A stretch of 64,000 bases of DNA, taken from the human T2T-CHM13v2.0 reference genome, Homo sapiens. Below are positions 7,270-53,421 of the stretch, in pieces (the first letter of the stretch is position 1; the number at the start of each line of letters is the position of its first letter). The DNA lies in assembly GCF_009914755.1 (NCBI RefSeq), contig NC_060943.1; one strand, written 5' to 3'. Below the pieces are notes generated by a model. That model searched no databases. It saw only the letters and a program-made list of their open reading frames with translations, and was not told the origin of the DNA. Position numbers and translations under genes: made by a program.

Positions 7270-7440
7270 TAGAAAGAGCTCAACCACTGACTTTCCTCTT
7301 TTTGACCACATGACTCTTCCAGGTATAAAAGCCTGCCGTTGGTGGAAAAGGAAAAGGTGGTCCAGTTAGACAAGATGCCACCGGCTTCTGAAACCAGACA
7401 TCTTTGAAAACCCACCCATCTACCTGCAGGAAAAGGCAAG
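7270..7440 (+). promoter_or_regulatory. FFAR2-paralogous promoter and exon-1 module of unit 1 (E-box CACATG 7307, TATAAAA 7324, GC donor 7436)
   Basis: 7286-7334 aligns ungapped to 48925-48973 at 34/49. E-box-to-TATA offset is 17 nt in both. Donor is AAAG|GCAAGG. Confidence 0.8.
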
Positions 7441-8451
7441 GGACCTGACCTCGCCTGGGCTCAGGGAAGAGGTTGCTGGGATCATAACCCCAGGAAGAGA
7501 CGGGATGGAAGGAGAGCATGCAGGGAGCAGAGGACAGGCTACTCTCCAAGGAGGAGAGGGAAGAGGCCACAGAAATGGAAAAGGGGCCAGGACAAGTCAG
7601 TGGAGAGATGGTCAGGGCCTGGCGAGGAGGAGCAGGACAAAAGCGGTGGAGCTCAGCCCCGTGGCGGCAGGGCCACTCCCATTCATCTGGTCCTCTACTT
7701 CTGAAGTTCTCGAATGCAGAATGAGATGTACAGATGGGCCAGCAGGTGATATGCTATCTGTCATAGGTTAAGGCCTCATTATTTTATTCATTTTTAAACT
7801 TTTTTTTTTTTGAGACCGGGTCTTGTTCTGTCGCCCAGGCTGGTTTGCAGTGGTGCCACCATGGTTCACTGTAACCTTGAAGCCCCTGGGCTCAAGTGAT
7901 CCTCCTGCCTCAGCCTCCAGAGTAACGAGGACTACAGGTGCACACCGCCATGCCCAGCTAATTTCTTAACGTTTTGTAGAGAAAGGCTCTCACTGTGTTG
8001 CCCAGGCTGGTCTTGAACTCCTTGACTCAAGCAATCCTCCTGTCTTGGCTTCCCAAAGTGTTGGGATTACAGGTGTGAGCCACTGCTCCCAGCCACAAGT
8101 TTTATTTTAAATGTTTACCTTTCAATGATCACTTCGAGGAGATTTAAGCTTACTCTTTCTTTTTTTTTTTTTTCTTGAGATGGAGTCTTGCTGTGTCGTC
8201 CAGGCTGGAGTGCAGTGGTGCTATCTTGGCTCACTGCAACCTCTGCCTCCCAGGTTCAAGTGATTCTCCTACCTCAGCCTCCCGAGTAGCTGAGACTACA
8301 GGCATGTGCCACCACTCCCGACTAATTTTTGTATTTTTAGTAGAGTCGGGGTTTCACCATGTTAGCCAGGTTGGTCTCGAACTCCTGACCTAAAGTGATC
8401 TGCCTGCCTCAGCCTCCCAAAGTGCTGGGAGGCATGAGCCACCATGCCTGG

Positions 8452-9317
8452 CTCATTGTCTAGTTTTTACCAAGAAGACGATGAGATATGCCAGAGGGCT
8501 CCGTATCTGCTATGAGAACGTCCCCCAAGAGCAGCTGGCCGTGGTGCTGCAGCTGGAGCTGTGCTTGGAGCTCTTCTTCACCCCCATGGCGGTCACCACC
8601 TTCTGCCACTGGCACTTTGTGCAGATCATGCTCTCCTGGCCCCAAGTGGGGACCTGGAGGTGCTGAAGAGCCAAGAGACTGGCTGCCGTGACCCTCTTCA
8701 ACTTCCTGGTCTGCTTGGACCCTGTGCTTTGTCTCCCGTGGTGGGTTCCCCCAGTGGAAGAGTCAAATTGGTGGGCAGGCGCAGTGTTGTTCAGTGCTCT
8801 CGATGCTGCATTGACCCCTTGATTTTCTTTGTTTTTGTTTTTATTTTGTTTTGTTTTGTTTTTGAGATGGAGTCTCGCTCTGTCACCCAGGCTGGAGTGC
8901 AGTGGTGTGATCTTGGCTCACTGCAACCTCCGCCTCCTGGGTTCTCCTGCCTCAGCCTCCCGGGTAGCTGGGATTACAGGCACCCACCACCACACCCGGC
9001 TAATTTTTGTATTTTTAGTAGAGACGAGGTTTCAACCCCTACTCAGGCTGGTGTCAAACTCCTGACCGCAAGTGATCTGCCCACCTTGGCCTCCCAAAGT
9101 GTTGCAATTACAGGCGTGAGCCACCATGCCCAGCCTAACCCCTTGATTTTCTGTTTCTCTTCCTCCACCGTGCGCAAAGCCTTTGACAGAGGGCCACGGA
9201 GGTGGCAGCACGGCGGGGGTCTCACTGTCTGGGTGGTGGTGAAAGCTCTGGAGAGCCAGCTGCAGAGAGAAGATGTGGATCTTAGGGACGGCCAATGTCA
9301 CCTTCACAGGAGATTAG
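8452..9317 (+). pseudogene. FFAR2-like pseudogene, unit 1 (end of TM4 to C-terminus), Alu-interrupted
   Basis: Translates as [69 protein letters not shown] / [10 protein letters not shown] / [19 protein letters not shown] ... NVTFTGD*. FFAR2 has TCYENFTDNQLDVVLPVRLELCLVLFFIPMAVTIFCYWRFVWIMLSQPLVG...DPLLFYFSSSVVRRAFGRG...SDFTTE*. Stops at 8461 and 8664, frameshifts near 8716 and 8812, Alu at 8829-9135. Confidence 0.95.
8829..9135 (-). mobile_element. AluS-type element inserted into the TM7 DPxxF codons of pseudogene unit 1
   Basis: Full Alu with 17-bp TSD T(G/A)ACCCCTTGATTTTCT at 8812-8828 and 9136-9152. Confidence 0.95.
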
Positions 9318-10229
9318 AGGCGCCAGCTTGGGGTAACCTTTTGGGGAAGGAGGGCTCAAAAAGAGGAACAATGAAACAGAACTAAGGTGAGTTCTCCTGT
9401 GCCCAGTTTCAGAGGTCAAGGAGAGTAGTAGATAGCTCAAACCCAACTCAGCCATTGAGTGAGTGTTTTCATTTTGTTCCTTGGGGTCTATGATATTTTC
9501 TATTTTCTTTTCTTTCCTTTTGTTTTGGTTTGTTTGTTTGGTTGGTTGGTTGGTTGGTTTGTTTTAGAGACAGGGTTTCCCTCTGTCACCCAGGCTGGAA
9601 TGCAGTAGTGTGATCACATCACACTGCAGCTTCTAACTCATGGGTTCAAGCCATCCTCCTGCCTCAGCCTCCTGAGTAGCTGGGACTCCAGGTGCACGCC
9701 ACCATGGCCGGCTAATTGTTTATTTTTTATAGAGACAGGGTTTCACTATGTTGGCCAGGATGTTCAACAACTTCTGCCTTCAAGCGATCTTCCCTCCTGG
9801 GCTCCCCAAGTGCTGAGTTTACAAGCATCAGCCACCACACCCAGCCTATGACATTTTCTTCATTATGGCTGGTACTGCCTCATGGTAAGCCACAAGCCTT
9901 TTTATCTTGTAATATCAGAGTCTTGGAATTCTTTATCTTCCCTACTCTATATCTAGAAGACAGTAGCACTGACTTATCTGCTGCAGAGCTCTTAATTCTA
10001 TCCTTGGCCCCGATTCAGAAAAGGGGGTTCCTCATGCTGGATCTGAACAACCCAGCACAGGCAAGTCTGGGGAGCAAGGCAGGAGCCTGCATGTGGACTC
10101 AAAGGACCGGCACCCGAAACAAAGCAGTGGCTGGCACAGGTGGACAAACCAGGCAAGAAAAGCAACTGTCCTTCGGAGCAGAGTCCACGTGATGGGAAGA
10201 AACAGGTCATGATACTTTTGAGTGGTTAC

Positions 10230-51676: not shown

Positions 51677-51978
51677 GCCGGGTGTGGTGGCTCATGCCTA
51701 TAATCCCAGAACTTTGGGAGGCTGAGGCAGGTGGATCACTTGAGGTCGGGAGATTGAGAACATCCTGGTCAACATGGGAAAACCCTGTCTCTACTAAAAA
51801 TACAAAAAAATTAGCTGGGCATGGTGGCACATGCCTATAATCCCAGCTACTCTGGAGGCTGAGGCAGGAGAATCCTTGAACCCGGGAGTTGGAGGTTGCA
51901 GTGAGCTGAGATCACGCCACTGCACTCCAGCCTAGCGACAGAGCAAGACTCCATTTAAAAAAAAAAAAAAAAAAAAAA
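51677..51978 (+). mobile_element. Sense Alu in the FFAR2 3'UTR
   Basis: TSD AGAAGCACCT. Confidence 0.95.
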
Positions 51979-52480
51979 AGAAGCACCTTCAGGCTGGAGA
52001 AGCAGCGTAGCTAACACAAGTCCAGTCCTTGTGATGTGGCTGGTAGTTGGGGATGGCCAGGCTGAAGCAGAGAGTCCTAGAGAAATCTCGATACAAGCTT
52101 CAAAGCAACACCTAGACACTGCTCTAGCGGTTGATCCTGGAGATAAACCAACAAGAGAGAGATGGAAGAGAAATACTAAATGAGGTCAAAGAAGACTCAG
52201 AAAGGTTCTGAGCCTGGAGATGAGCAGGGAGGCCTCAGGGCTTAGACCTTTAATGATAGGGGTTTCCCTGCATTGGTTTGACCTGTTGCCTTTTTGATGT
52301 GCTCTGTTTGTTTTCATGTGTTGTCTTGTCTCCCCTGCTAAACTGGGAGCTGCCAGGGGTCTGGGTCTTATCTCCTTCCTCCATGGTACCCCACACAGGC
52401 CAGGATGTGGTTTGGTACCCAGCAATCAGAGATTGGCACTCCCTCATACAGGGGAAAGCAACCTGGTCTAGCAAATTGAA

Positions 52481-52486
52481 AATAAA
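52481..52486 (+). terminator. FFAR2: FFAR2 polyadenylation signal AATAAA (cleavage ~52500); the 3'UTR carries a sense Alu
   Basis: First canonical AATAAA I find after the stop codon, followed by GT/T-rich sequence. Confidence 0.7.
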
Positions 52487-53421
52487 GATGATAAAACTCT
52501 GAAGTGAATGTCCACAATTTTTGTAACACTGCTGCAAGCACAGGGAGGGCAAAAATAGGAGAGAGAACCAGATTCAGCAGCAAAGGGGAAAAGTGATGCA
52601 TCTGAAACCACAGAAACATCTTAAGATAAAGAGGTGGTGTGGGCAAAGGAAGTGAGAGCACTGACGGAATCGTCTTTCGAGGGATGAATAGAGAGTCCGG
52701 ACTTAGAAAGGATGCAGGGTGATTCCGATTCACAGTCATCTGTCTGCCACAGGGCCTTAAAACATGTCACCCTCCTGCTCAGAAACCTGCAGAGCTTTCC
52801 TATCATCAAAATGTTTCCTTGGCCAGTTGCAGGGGCTCATGACTGTAATCCCAGCACTTTGGGAGGCTGAGGTGGGAGGATCACTTGAGCCCAGGAGTTG
52901 GAGACCCACCTGGGCAACACAGTGAGACCCTGTCTCTCAATTTTAAAAATTTAATTTAAAAAGATGAGTCCGGCTGGGCACAGTGGCTCATGCCTGTAAT
53001 CCCAACAGTTTGGGAGGCCAAGGCGGGAGGATCGCCTGAGGTCAGAAGTTCTAGACCAGCCTGGCTAACATGGTAAAACCCCATCTCTACTAAAAAGACA
53101 AAAAAAATTAGCCGGGCATGGTGGTGCGTGCCTGTAATCCCAGCTACTGAGGAGGCTGAGGCAGGAGAATCACTTGAACCTGGGAGGCAGAGGTTGCAGT
53201 GAGCCGAGATTGCGCCACTGCACTCCAGCCTGGGCAACAGAGCGAGACTCTGTCTCCAAAAAAAAAAAAAAAAGTGCTTCCCCCAAGGAACTCATATTGT
53301 ACCATTCTTTTCCTTGCTTTGTCCTCTCTCTCCCCTTCCAGTTCTACCTGCCTAGCTCATTTTTCCACAATAAGGACTCCTAGACCATTCTCTCTAGTTA
53401 AATGACCTCCAGCCCCTAACC

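What the first reader, a model, noticed from the sequence alone, without database searches (positions are those of the whole stretch)
7270..52500. Hidden tandem array of decayed FFAR2 paralogues: four head-to-tail promoter-plus-gene units, only the last intact
Seen: three separate FFAR2-homologous coding remnants (8452-9317, ~22110-22400, ~35125-35450), all on the + strand. Each is preceded by a copy of the FFAR2 upstream module (TATA-position elements at 7324, 18211, 33432 vs 48963), spaced 11-16 kb apart. Units 2 and 3 both cover TM3/ICL2, so they are distinct genes and not one split gene. Retained promoters and intron-sized gaps indicate DNA-level tandem duplication, not retrocopies. Established: FFAR1/FFAR3/GPR42/FFAR2 form a tandem cluster. 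From memory, to be verified: extra FFAR2-like genes are reported in pig and chicken. Inference: an ancestral mammal had at least four FFAR2-type SCFA receptors here, lost at different times in the human lineage. Units 2 and 3 give no signal as whole ORFs and may be unannotated.
Basis: partly seen in the sequence, partly recalled or inferred. Interest (0 to 1): 0.92.

Follow-up and report, generated by a model that had tools for sequence, protein, structure and literature searches.

The report
Relic tandem array of FFAR2-type genes
Upstream of the human short-chain fatty acid receptor gene FFAR2 lie the decayed remains of several head-to-tail copies of the same kind of gene, one of them the dead human counterpart of a second FFAR2-type receptor that many other mammals still have.

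Summary
The core of the finding holds, but several details are wrong.

- **Unit 1 (8484-8821, 9150-9317):** a certain FFAR2-type unprocessed pseudogene. It falls in the placental "FFAR2-like" clade, which is intact in tarsier, galago, treeshrew, pig and elephant. No anthropoid copy was found.
- **5' module:** the FFAR2 promoter, exon 1 and GC splice donor occur six times, all on the + strand. Five copies are in the window (7217, 18943, 26193, 33325, 48910). One lies 22 kb upstream of the window. The module is not an interspersed repeat at the sensitivity available.
wrong. The true copy has its TATA equivalent at about 19049. The copy at 26.2 kb was missed.
- **3' module:** a polyadenylation module shared with FFAR3 and GPR42 is interleaved with the 5' modules. 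Copies at 31.0 and 47.3 kb are firm; those at 38.0 and 17.5 kb are weaker.
- **Unit 3 body (34791-35390):** moderate, FFAR2-specific homology (E 2e-4 to 2e-3).
- **Possible extra gene tail (40596-40957):** tentative.
- **Unit 2 "coding remnant" (22.1-22.4 kb):** compositional. Unrelated GPCR genes, and FFAR3 on both strands, score as high on that stretch.

Only FFAR2 and FFAR2-like have living members among the listed hits (best 120 of 445 and of 618).

The parts
7217..7700 (+). Unit 1 5' module: copy of the FFAR2 promoter (TATAAA at 7325), exon 1, GC splice donor and start of intron 1. LINC01531 exon 2 starts at 7323, inside it.
   Evidence: nhmmer against the FFAR2 locus gives E 9.5e-6. It was the seed of the profile. 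Local alignment against 48963 was reached by 0 of 300 shuffles.
8484..8821 (+). Unit 1 coding remnant, FFAR2 aa ~159-270 (ECL2 to TM7). It has an in-frame TGA at 8664-8666 and a frameshift near 8808. Everything before aa ~158 is missing; two Alus (7779-8118, 8147-8467) lie directly upstream.
   Evidence: L-clade residues are shown. Tree placement has SH-aLRT 100.
8822..9149 (-). Alu inserted into the TM7 codons of unit 1, flanked by a 15-base target-site duplication ACCCCTTGATTTTCT (8816-8830 and 9138-9152).
   Evidence: Self-hit mask 8819-9150. The sequence was read directly.
9150..9317 (+). Unit 1 C-terminal tail ([17 protein letters not shown]...), homologous to FFAR2 51268-51443.
   Evidence: nhmmer E 0.0055. 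tblastn with tarsier FFAR2-like gives 67% identity, E 8e-7.
17475..17561 (+). Tentative 3' (polyadenylation) module of unit 1. The annotated end of LINC01531 (17573) lies 12 bases beyond it.
   Evidence: Profile E 0.058. Pairwise match to 37933-38043 gives E 0.005-0.013. Borderline: one reversed-sequence control reached E 0.03.
18943..19097 (+). Unit 2 5' module (TATA equivalent TGTAAA at 19049). The alignment to FFAR2 extends over 18839-19215.
   Evidence: blastn to unit 1 gives E 4e-9 and to unit 3 E 2e-10. nhmmer to FFAR2 gives E 0.002. First-round profile E 1.9e-10.
22110..22400 (+).
   Evidence: nhmmer E 2.2-4.7. Family HMM fragments give E 20-28. Control references score 29-31 on the same tile; FFAR3 does so on both strands.
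26193..26681 (+). It keeps the GCAAGG donor.
   Evidence: nhmmer from unit 1 gives E 9e-7 and 1e-7. The reverse search gives E 1.9e-4. Alignment.
30895..31066 (+). 3' module, homologous to the polyadenylation region of FFAR3/GPR42. Wider homology with 37474-38135 covers 30495-31145.
   Evidence: nhmmer to the FFAR3 3' end gives E 3.4e-5. Profile round 2 gives E 8e-8.
33325..33802 (+). Unit 3 5' module (TATA equivalent ATAAGA at 33433). It overlaps RefSeq enhancer 33627-34826 and an exon of LOC101927522.
   Evidence: nhmmer from unit 1 gives E 1.8e-10 and 3.9e-12. Sequence read.
34791..35390 (+). Unit 3 body: the end of intron 1, an acceptor-like CTCCAG ending at about 35073, and coding remnant aa ~1-130. 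The residue-level alignment is unreliable.
   Evidence: nhmmer E 2.7e-4, 1.8e-4 and reciprocal 7.7e-4. Second-highest of 472 tile-strands, and not among the eight top tiles shown for any control reference. Unique in the genome.
37972..38108 (+). 3' module of unit 3, of moderate support. Wider homology 37474-38135. It lies inside RefSeq enhancer 37276-38239.
   Evidence: Profile E 0.006. Pairwise match to 30683-31145 gives E 4e-5 to 4.5e-4. Unique in the genome.
40596..40957 (+). Tentative tail of a further unit (3b): TM7, C-terminal tail and start of the 3' UTR.
   Evidence: Highest tile in the scan with the FFAR2 coding sequence (score 31; null maximum 26 among 379 tiles). nhmmer from unit 1 9217-9508 gives E 0.001, in the same register. 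Unique in the genome. No protein-level hit.
47244..47587 (+). 3' module that keeps ATTAAA and AATAAA, 1.3 kb upstream of the FFAR2 5' module.
   Evidence: nhmmer to the GPR42 and FFAR3 3' ends gives E 3e-11 and 2e-10. Alignment. Unique in the genome.
48910..49317 (+). FFAR2 5' module: CACGTG at 48946-48951, TATAAA at 48963, exon 1 at 48993-49115, and GC donor at 49116.
   Evidence: Sequence read. Profile search. Passages of PMC4311239 place the transcription start 1459 bp upstream of the ATG and the core promoter with its XBP1 site at -58 to -33, which contains the CACGTG.
50451..51443 (+). The intact FFAR2 coding sequence (330 aa).

Best explanation
The 70 kb between GPR42 and FFAR2 is the fossil of a head-to-tail array of FFAR2-type gene units made by DNA-level tandem duplication.

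**Ancestral unit.** Each unit had a TATA promoter, a short non-coding exon 1 with a GC donor, one intron, a single coding exon and a polyadenylation region.

**What survives.**
- FFAR2, which is intact.
- Unit 1, the dead human copy of the placental FFAR2-like gene. It has lost TM1-TM4, carries a stop, a frameshift and an Alu insertion, and is now transcribed as LINC01531.
- Older wrecks, of which mostly the 5' and 3' modules remain (units 0, 2, 2b, 3 and perhaps 3b).

**What is shown and what is inferred.**
- Shown: the repeated modules, their common orientation and order, the unit 1 pseudogene, and its affinity to the FFAR2-like clade.
- Inferred: that all units were once whole genes; that the old units died before the placental radiation; and that unit 1 died in the anthropoid stem.

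As genes the relics do nothing. Some overlap annotated enhancers and lncRNA exons, so a regulatory afterlife is possible but untested.
For: **5' module.**
- Six copies in 144 kb, all on the + strand. First-round nhmmer E ranges from 2e-12 to 1e-7. The best hit in reversed or control DNA is E 0.1. Two further profile rounds add no copy.
- The copies align in register across the mapped FFAR2 core promoter, TATA box, exon 1 and the GC donor AAG|GCAAGG. The donor is kept in units 1 and 2b.
- The core pattern, allowing one mismatch, occurs 5 times in the 3.1 Gb genome. Three of these are units 0, 1 and 2. The reversed-pattern control gives 1.
- Genome DNA searches with module stretches return only the stretch itself. 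A known-repeat positive control returns 1211 candidates.

**3' module.**
- It is shared with the FFAR3 and GPR42 polyadenylation regions and lies between successive 5' modules.

**Unit 1.**
- Its coding homology is beyond doubt.
- Its intron homology is weak on its own (7433-7622 to 49113-49310, E 0.85). It is collinear with the promoter match, and the continuous nhmmer alignment 7273-7623 gives E 9.5e-6.
- It sits in the FFAR2-like clade with SH-aLRT 100 and carries clade-specific residues.
- Holding it with the tarsier and galago FFAR2-like genes is not rejected (AU p 0.32).

**Unit 3 body.**
- E 1.8e-4, with a reciprocal hit, and FFAR2-specific in the tile scan.

**Unit length.**
- The non-repeat lengths between modules are 4861 and 5125 bases for units 2 and 2b. 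They total 10709 bases between unit 3 and FFAR2. This fits a period of about 5 kb with two units in the last gap.
Against: - No coding remnant was found for units 0, 2 and 2b. A protein family HMM run over six-frame fragments finds none there, and also misses unit 3.
- A DNA profile built from the four human FFAR coding sequences finds only unit 1.
- The unit 3 coding part alone gives E 2.4-7.3. Two different registers were produced by two aligners.
- A search of solved structures with the unit 3 fragment returns no GPCR.
- FFAR2's own 3' end matches the 3' module only at E 5.2.
- Only two placental clades have living members among the listed hits.
- Placing unit 1 with the FFAR2 clade costs 20.9 log-likelihood units but is not formally rejected (AU p 0.09).
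- No repeat library (Dfam or RepeatMasker) was available, and other mammals' genomes could not be searched.
Confidence: 0.78

Rival explanations
1. Only unit 1 was ever a second gene. On this reading the other 5' modules are partial duplicates of the promoter and first exon, for example former alternative first exons or duplicated regulatory blocks of FFAR2 or FFAR2-like. They never had their own coding exon.
For: - No coding remnant was found for units 0, 2 and 2b.
- Only two clades have living members among the listed hits.
- The 5' modules would have outlasted their coding exons, which is odd for neutral decay unless the modules are functional.
Against: - Copies of the polyadenylation module lie between the 5' modules.
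- Unit 3 has collinear intron and coding homology at E 1.8e-4.
- A TM7 and tail remnant at 40.6 kb has no 5' module of its own.
- The non-repeat period of about 5 kb matches a whole gene unit.
Confidence: 0.15
2. The repeated modules are ancient interspersed repeats or chance similarities. On this reading the window holds one ordinary pseudogene (unit 1) and nothing more.
For: - Identities are low: 59-66% to unit 1 and 43-58% among the others.
- Some unmasked old repeats in the window give nhmmer E-values of 1e-3 to 1e-6 against the control loci.
- No repeat library was at hand.
Against: - All 6 of 6 copies are on the + strand, and all lie inside one 71 kb interval. None lies in the 40 kb of control DNA or in any reversed sequence.
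- The genome-wide pattern count is 5, against 1 for the control, and 3 of the 5 are at this locus.
- The module stretches are unique in the genome, while a true repeat gives 1211 candidates.
- The copies align to the experimentally mapped promoter, exon 1 and splice donor of FFAR2, in register.
Confidence: 0.04
3. One reading: exactly four units, with promoters at 7324, 18211, 33432 and 48963, and with coding remnants at 22.1-22.4 kb and 35.1-35.45 kb that both cover TM3/ICL2.
For: - Three of the four promoter coordinates are right.
- The 21401-23050 tiles rank fourth and fifth of 472 tile-strands (third distinct locus) in the FFAR2 scan.
Against: - 18211 is no better than shuffles, 41 of 300 of which reach its score.
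- The 22 kb tile scores as high with FFAR3 on both strands, with FFAR1 and with an unrelated GPCR gene. Its weak FFAR2 match is to aa 19-61 or 52-101, not TM3/ICL2.
- Two further 5' modules exist, at 26193 and at -22169.
Confidence: 0.03

Closest known systems
FFAR3/GPR42 primate segmental duplication (Puhl et al. 2015, PMC4531286; passages read)
   Same: It lies in the same cluster and is also a head-to-tail duplication at the DNA level. The 3' module described here is the polyadenylation region of those two genes.
   Different: That duplication is a recent, primate-specific, 12.5 kb event whose copies are nearly identical, and GPR42 is functional. The array described here is ancient (module identities 43-66%) and dead apart from FFAR2. 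In the passages read, the paper does not mention FFAR2-type relics or LINC01531.
Placental 'free fatty acid receptor 2-like' genes. These are database annotations only (P0098 pig, P0106 tarsier, P0111 galago, P0103 treeshrew, P0114 elephant and others).
   Same: Unit 1 groups with this clade (SH-aLRT 100). It shares the clade's residues. In 12 species the FFAR2 and FFAR2-like proteins come from contigs of the same length, which suggests, but does not prove, linkage.
   Different: Those genes are intact, whereas unit 1 is truncated and broken. Searches for 'FFAR2-like', 'FFAR2L', 'GPR43-like', 'acid receptor 2-like' and pseudogene terms found no mammalian description. Subscription journals are not covered by these searches.
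Chicken FFAR2 expansion (Meslin et al. 2015, PMC4453067; passages read)
   Same: It is a tandem multiplication of FFAR2-type genes in an amniote.
   Different: The chicken has more than 20 mostly intact, recent paralogues. Here there are old relics and one survivor.
Relic unprocessed pseudogenes in other tandem families, such as globin and olfactory receptor clusters (recalled, not checked here)
   Same: These too are decayed duplicates that keep the order and orientation of their family.
   Different: Here the best preserved parts are the promoter-exon 1 module and the polyadenylation module, not the coding exons.

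Membership tests
Unprocessed (duplication-derived) pseudogene of an FFAR2-type receptor: unit 1 | Significant homology to the parent coding sequence | tested here: met
   tblastn E 7e-25. DNA identity 72%, E 5e-51. 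Search of solved structures returns FFAR2 at E 2.5e-15.
Unprocessed (duplication-derived) pseudogene of an FFAR2-type receptor: unit 1 | Disabling lesions | tested here: met
   In-frame TGA at 8664-8666. Alu insertion with a 15-base target-site duplication in TM7. A frameshift near 8808, read. No homology to aa 1-157. R180 and R255 are replaced (the residue roles come from passages of PMC4453067).
Unprocessed (duplication-derived) pseudogene of an FFAR2-type receptor: unit 1 | Keeps the parental promoter, exon 1 and intron (so is not a retrocopy) | tested here: met
   The 5' module at 7217-7700 holds the TATA box, exon 1 and GC donor. The continuous alignment 7273-7623 to the FFAR2 promoter, exon 1 and intron gives E 9.5e-6. 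The intron part alone, 7433-7622 to 49113-49310, gives only E 0.85.
Placental FFAR2-like clade: unit 1 as its human orthologue | Groups inside the clade on a tree | tested here: met
   SH-aLRT 100 for the 18-row set. The clade residues [16 protein letters not shown] and AVLFSAL are present. Caveats: unit 1 sits on a long branch; the AU test does not formally reject placement with the FFAR2 clade (p 0.09); grouping with the primate FFAR2-like genes is not rejected (p 0.32).
Placental FFAR2-like clade: unit 1 as its human orthologue | Same chromosomal position as the intact gene in other mammals | not testable with these tools
   No mammalian genome other than the window's own is held. The only hint is the equal contig lengths of the two proteins in 12 species.
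Relic tandem gene array: units 0, 2, 2b, 3, 3b | Repeated copies of gene-end modules in the same orientation and in gene order | tested here: met
   Six 5' modules, all on the + strand. The 3' modules lie between them.
Relic tandem gene array: units 0, 2, 2b, 3, 3b | The modules are not an interspersed repeat family | tested here: met
   at the sensitivity of those searches. Dfam and RepeatMasker were not available.
Relic tandem gene array: units 0, 2, 2b, 3, 3b | Each unit holds a coding remnant | tested here: not met
   Unit 3 has moderate support. Unit 3b is tentative. Units 0, 2 and 2b have none.
Processed pseudogene (retrocopy) | Lacks the promoter and intron, and has a poly(A) tail with flanking duplications | tested here: not met
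   Promoter, exon 1, splice donor and intron homology are retained in units 1 and 3.
Pfam 7tm_1 (class A GPCR) | Profile match of the translated fragments | tested here: not met
   None of the 6 fragments matches, and this includes the three from unit 1. The test is therefore too insensitive to count against units 2 and 3.

The most novel reading that the evidence does not exclude
Early mammals carried a battery of six to eight FFAR2-type short-chain fatty acid receptor genes in tandem. The promoter and polyadenylation modules of the dead copies have stayed recognisable for over 100 million years because they were co-opted: as enhancers and as lncRNA promoters or ends (LINC01531, LOC101927522) that now help to control FFAR2 in myeloid and gut cells.
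Probability: 0.2. Interest if true: 0.65.

Novelty: new member of a known kind. Interest (0 to 1): 0.5.

Why it matters
- **Choice of animal models.** FFAR2 is a drug target and a main sensor of microbiota-derived short-chain fatty acids. Many mammals used as models or kept as livestock and pets carry an intact second FFAR2-type receptor; the hits here include pig, cattle, deer, cats, seals, panda, elephant, treeshrew and squirrels. Humans and, as far as these searches show, other anthropoids have only its wreck inside LINC01531. Muroid rodents did not appear in the lists either. This bears on how results transfer between species.
- **Nature of the lncRNAs.** The array explains what LINC01531 is, and what part of LOC101927522 is: transcripts over gene relics.
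- **Candidate regulatory elements.** The relic promoters and polyadenylation modules that coincide with annotated enhancers are candidate regulators of FFAR2.
- **Method.** For reading genomes, promoter-exon 1 and polyadenylation modules can outlast coding exons as markers of lost genes.

Tried and rejected
**Searches that did not help with units 2 and 3.**
- Pfam scan of six translated fragments: no match, even for unit 1, so uninformative. The first attempt failed because of stop codons in a reference.
- Search of solved structures with the unit 3 fragment: only chance hits (a polysaccharide deacetylase at E 0.004), no GPCR.
- Family HMM built from 113 FFAR2 and FFAR2-like proteins, run against 2065 six-frame fragments: units 2 and 3 were not above noise.
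- DNA profile of the four human FFAR coding sequences: it found unit 1 only.

**Statistical tests set aside.**
- Local alignment with +5/-4 scoring fell into the linear regime, where scores grow with length, and was discarded.
- Dinucleotide shuffles proved too lenient a null, since a negative region reached z 3.3. They were replaced by real-sequence tiles and control references.

**Weak hits considered and rejected.**
- 16793-16879, similar to TM2 (best E 0.036 among 121 queries; HMM E 0.74): at noise level and not collinear.
- 'NFSKEQEDFCLEV' at 26342-26380 and the tail-like 26442-26486: these fall inside the unit 2b 5' module, so they are chance.
- -685 to -440: an unrelated GPCR gene scores 38 on that tile, so the similarity is compositional.

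**Other.**
- Dating from K2P distances of the modules (0.47-1.14) is only a rough lower bound, because the alignment is centred on unit 1.
- A genome-wide search with a sequence model of the module was not possible. A pattern search was used instead.

Full report
**The locus.** The window is the human FFAR2 locus. The FFAR2 coding sequence at 50451-51443 translates without a stop into 330 residues. The window is very rich in Alus. I masked positions hit three or more times in a self-blastn, which covered 22063 of 64000 bases. All later DNA comparisons used masked or repeat-excised sequence.

**Unit 1.**
- tblastn places FFAR2 aa 164-270 on 8508-8819 (55% identity, E 7e-25) and aa 255-295 on 9095-9217.
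- Masked blastn gives 72% identity over 325 bases (E 5e-51).
- A search of solved structures with 8469-8663 returns FFAR2, FFAR3 and FFAR1 in that order.
- The remnant starts right after two Alus and has no counterpart of aa 1-157.
- It carries an in-frame TGA at 8664-8666 and a frameshift near 8808.
- An antisense Alu sits in the TM7 codons, between 15-base target-site duplications.

**The 5' module.**
None of 300 shuffles reaches its score.
- The copies claimed at 18211 and 33432 were no better than shuffles when compared with FFAR2 directly.
- A masked self-comparison then showed + strand matches linking 7216-7359, 18887-19056 and 33274-33475 (E 4e-9, 2e-10 and 6e-4).
- So the unit 3 coordinate is right (ATAAGA at 33433). 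The unit 2 copy is real but lies 838 bases from the stated place (TGTAAA at 19049).
- I then added 60 kb upstream, 20 kb downstream, four 10 kb control stretches of chromosome 19, and reversed copies of all of them.
- This revealed a sixth copy at window -22169 to -21858, between GPR42 and EEF1A1P7.
- Three rounds of profile search gave exactly six copies, all on the + strand. First-round E ranged from 2e-12 to 1e-7. The best control hit was E 0.1.

**What the 5' module is.**
- Passages of Ang et al. 2015 (PMC4311239) place the FFAR2 transcription start 1459 bp upstream of the ATG. They place the core promoter, with an essential XBP1 site, at -58 to -33.
- That interval contains the CACGTG at 48946-48951.
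- The module covers this element, the TATA box, exon 1 and the exon 1 donor, which is a GC donor (AAG|GCAAGG, 49115/49116).
- Units 1 and 2b keep GCAAGG.
- All relic copies have lost the CpG of CACGTG. They read CACATG, CACATA, GACATG, ACACAG and CTAAGG.

**It is not an interspersed repeat, at the sensitivity available.**
- The core pattern with one mismatch allowed occurs 5 times in the genome, and three of those are units 0, 1 and 2. The reversed control pattern occurs once.
- Genome DNA searches with the unit 2 module returned only the query itself. The same held for the 47.3 kb module, 40640-41000, 34700-35470 and 37450-38150.
- A repeat from the window used as a positive control returned 1211 candidates.
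- No repeat library was available, so very old families cannot be fully excluded.

**The 3' module.**
- 47244-47587 is homologous to the 3' ends of FFAR3 and GPR42 (E 2e-10 and 3e-11). That region holds their two AATAAA signals and their annotated gene ends.
- The 47.3 kb copy keeps ATTAAA and AATAAA.
- A second firm copy lies at 30895-31066.
- Weaker copies lie at 37972-38108 (E 0.006) and 17475-17561 (E 0.058). One reversed control reached E 0.03, so these two are borderline on profile score alone.
- They are also linked pairwise: 37667-38136 to 30683-31145 at E 4.5e-4, and 17456-17566 to 37933-38043 at E 0.005-0.013.
- LINC01531 ends 12 bases past the 17.5 kb copy.
- FFAR2's own 3' end matches only at E 5.2.

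**Order of elements along the + strand.**
- Unit 0: 5' module (outside the window).
- Unit 1: 5' module, coding remnant, 3' module (tentative).
- Unit 2: 5' module only.
- Unit 2b: 5' module, 3' module.
- Unit 3: 5' module, body, 3' module.
- A possible gene tail, then a 3' module.
- FFAR2.

**Unit 3 body.**
- The repeat-excised FFAR2 locus aligns over 50128-50838 with 34791-35390 (E 2.7e-4). That stretch is the end of the intron, the acceptor, and aa 1-129.
- A query limited to 49846-50900 gives E 1.8e-4.
- The unit 3 body as query finds FFAR2 as its best non-self hit (E 7.7e-4).
- Taken alone, the intron part (E 15) and the coding part (E 2.4) are not significant. The alignment accuracy is low, and a second aligner chose another register for TM3.
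- In a scan of 472 tile-strands of 1.1 kb of real sequence with the FFAR2 coding sequence, the unit 3 tiles score 30. The maximum among the 379 tiles outside the + strand of the array is 26.
- These tiles are not among the eight top tiles shown for FFAR3, FFAR1 or any of six other GPCR loci used as control references.
- I take the homology as moderately supported and the residue-level reading as unreliable.

**Unit 2 coding remnant.**
- nhmmer gives E 2.2-4.7, to aa 19-61.
- The tile scores 29 with FFAR2. It also scores 29 with FFAR3 on both strands, 30 with FFAR1, and 31 with an unrelated GPCR gene.
- The similarity is therefore compositional: a CTG-rich stretch aligned against a leucine-rich helix.

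**A possible further unit (3b).**
- The top tile of the FFAR2 scan is 40596-40769, matching aa 262-317 (score 31, 70% identity over ungapped columns).
- Independently, unit 1 9217-9508 matches 40695-40957 by nhmmer (E 0.001) in the same register.
- No protein-level hit supports it, so it remains tentative.
- The non-repeat lengths between 5' modules are 4861 bases (unit 2), 5125 (unit 2b) and 10709 (unit 3 to FFAR2). This fits a period of about 5 kb with two units in the last gap. That reading is an inference.

**Relatives.**
- The protein database holds mammals. FFAR2 finds orthologues at 76-97% identity, and a second set at 63-72% named 'FFAR2-like' or FFAR2 in many placentals (the best 120 of 445 are listed).
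- A tree of 115 rows gives a placental FFAR2 clade (83 rows, support 99), an FFAR2-like clade (19 rows, support 95) and a marsupial clade, with the platypus outside. The order of the three clades is unresolved.
- Unit 1 falls in the FFAR2-like clade (SH-aLRT 100).
- Over 110 codons it is 63% identical to the tarsier gene, 67% to the squirrel gene and 56% to human FFAR2. It carries the residues typical of the clade.
- The AU test does not reject a clade of unit 1 with the tarsier and galago genes (p 0.32). It only weakly disfavours placement with FFAR2 (p 0.09).
- A search with the tarsier protein lists FFAR2-like genes from about 30 placental species. No anthropoid, muroid or bat is among them (the best 120 of 618 are listed). 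Absence from such a list is not proof of loss.
- No third placental clade appeared.

**Age.**
- Module identities are 59-66% to unit 1 and 43-58% among the others, with K2P distances of 0.47-1.14.
- That is in the range of the oldest recognisable mammalian repeats (a comparison from memory).
- I infer that the duplications predate the placental radiation. The old units died early, and unit 1 died late, after the tarsier split. None of this is dated rigorously.

**Literature.**
- Searches for FFAR2 with pseudogene, LINC01531, FFAR2-like and its variants, GPR43/FFAR2 pseudogene names, and 'acid receptor 2-like' found no description of a mammalian FFAR2-like gene or of these relics.
- These searches returned listings and abstracts only, apart from the passages cited above.
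- Papers in subscription journals and the GENCODE pseudogene tables could not be checked. Unit 1 may already be annotated there.

**Verdict.** This is a real but ordinary kind of feature, a decayed tandem gene family.

Noticed in passing
window 49115-49117 and 50449-50451: Intron 1 of FFAR2 uses a non-canonical GC donor (CACAAG|GCAAGG) with a normal AG acceptor one base before the ATG. The GCAAGG is kept in relic units 1 and 2b.
   Followed up: partly
window -35316 to -35230 (locus L016, between FFAR3 and GPR42): An 87-base copy of the 5' end of the FFAR1 coding sequence (nhmmer E 2e-15). This fits the statement in PMC4531286 that the 12.5 kb primate duplication took in part of FFAR1 as well as FFAR3.
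   Followed up: partly
window 55246-55677 and window -23124 to -22715: A well preserved inverted pair (nhmmer E 1e-56). One copy lies downstream of FFAR2 and the other just upstream of the unit 0 5' module, so the pair brackets the whole relic array. It is probably two copies of one transposable element, but this was not checked.
   Followed up: no
window 35053-35386 and 33592-33835 (minus strand): The first exon of the antisense lncRNA LOC101927522 overlaps the unit 3 coding remnant, and another of its exons overlaps the unit 3 5' module. RefSeq enhancers 33627-34826 and 37276-38239 overlap the unit 3 5' and 3' modules.
   Followed up: no
window 22861-23654, 44425-45130 and 39192-39328: Old interspersed repeats that my self-hit mask missed. 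They match the control loci and other places in both orientations. 39150-39370 gave 1211 genome candidates.
   Followed up: partly
proteins P0092, P0085, P0072; P0125, P0131, P0133, P0093: Ruminant FFAR2 sits on a long branch inside the cetartiodactyl FFAR2 group and is only 71% identical to human FFAR2. Ruminant FFAR2-like proteins differ widely in identity to the tarsier protein (75% in Cervus, 69-70% in Rangifer, Bos and Bubalus). This may mean fast evolution or a further duplication in animals that live on short-chain fatty acids.
   Followed up: no
window -9523 to -8450 and 71525-72581: Another inverted low-copy pair (E 3.5e-127 and 6e-27). It is probably two copies of a transposable element.
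   Followed up: no
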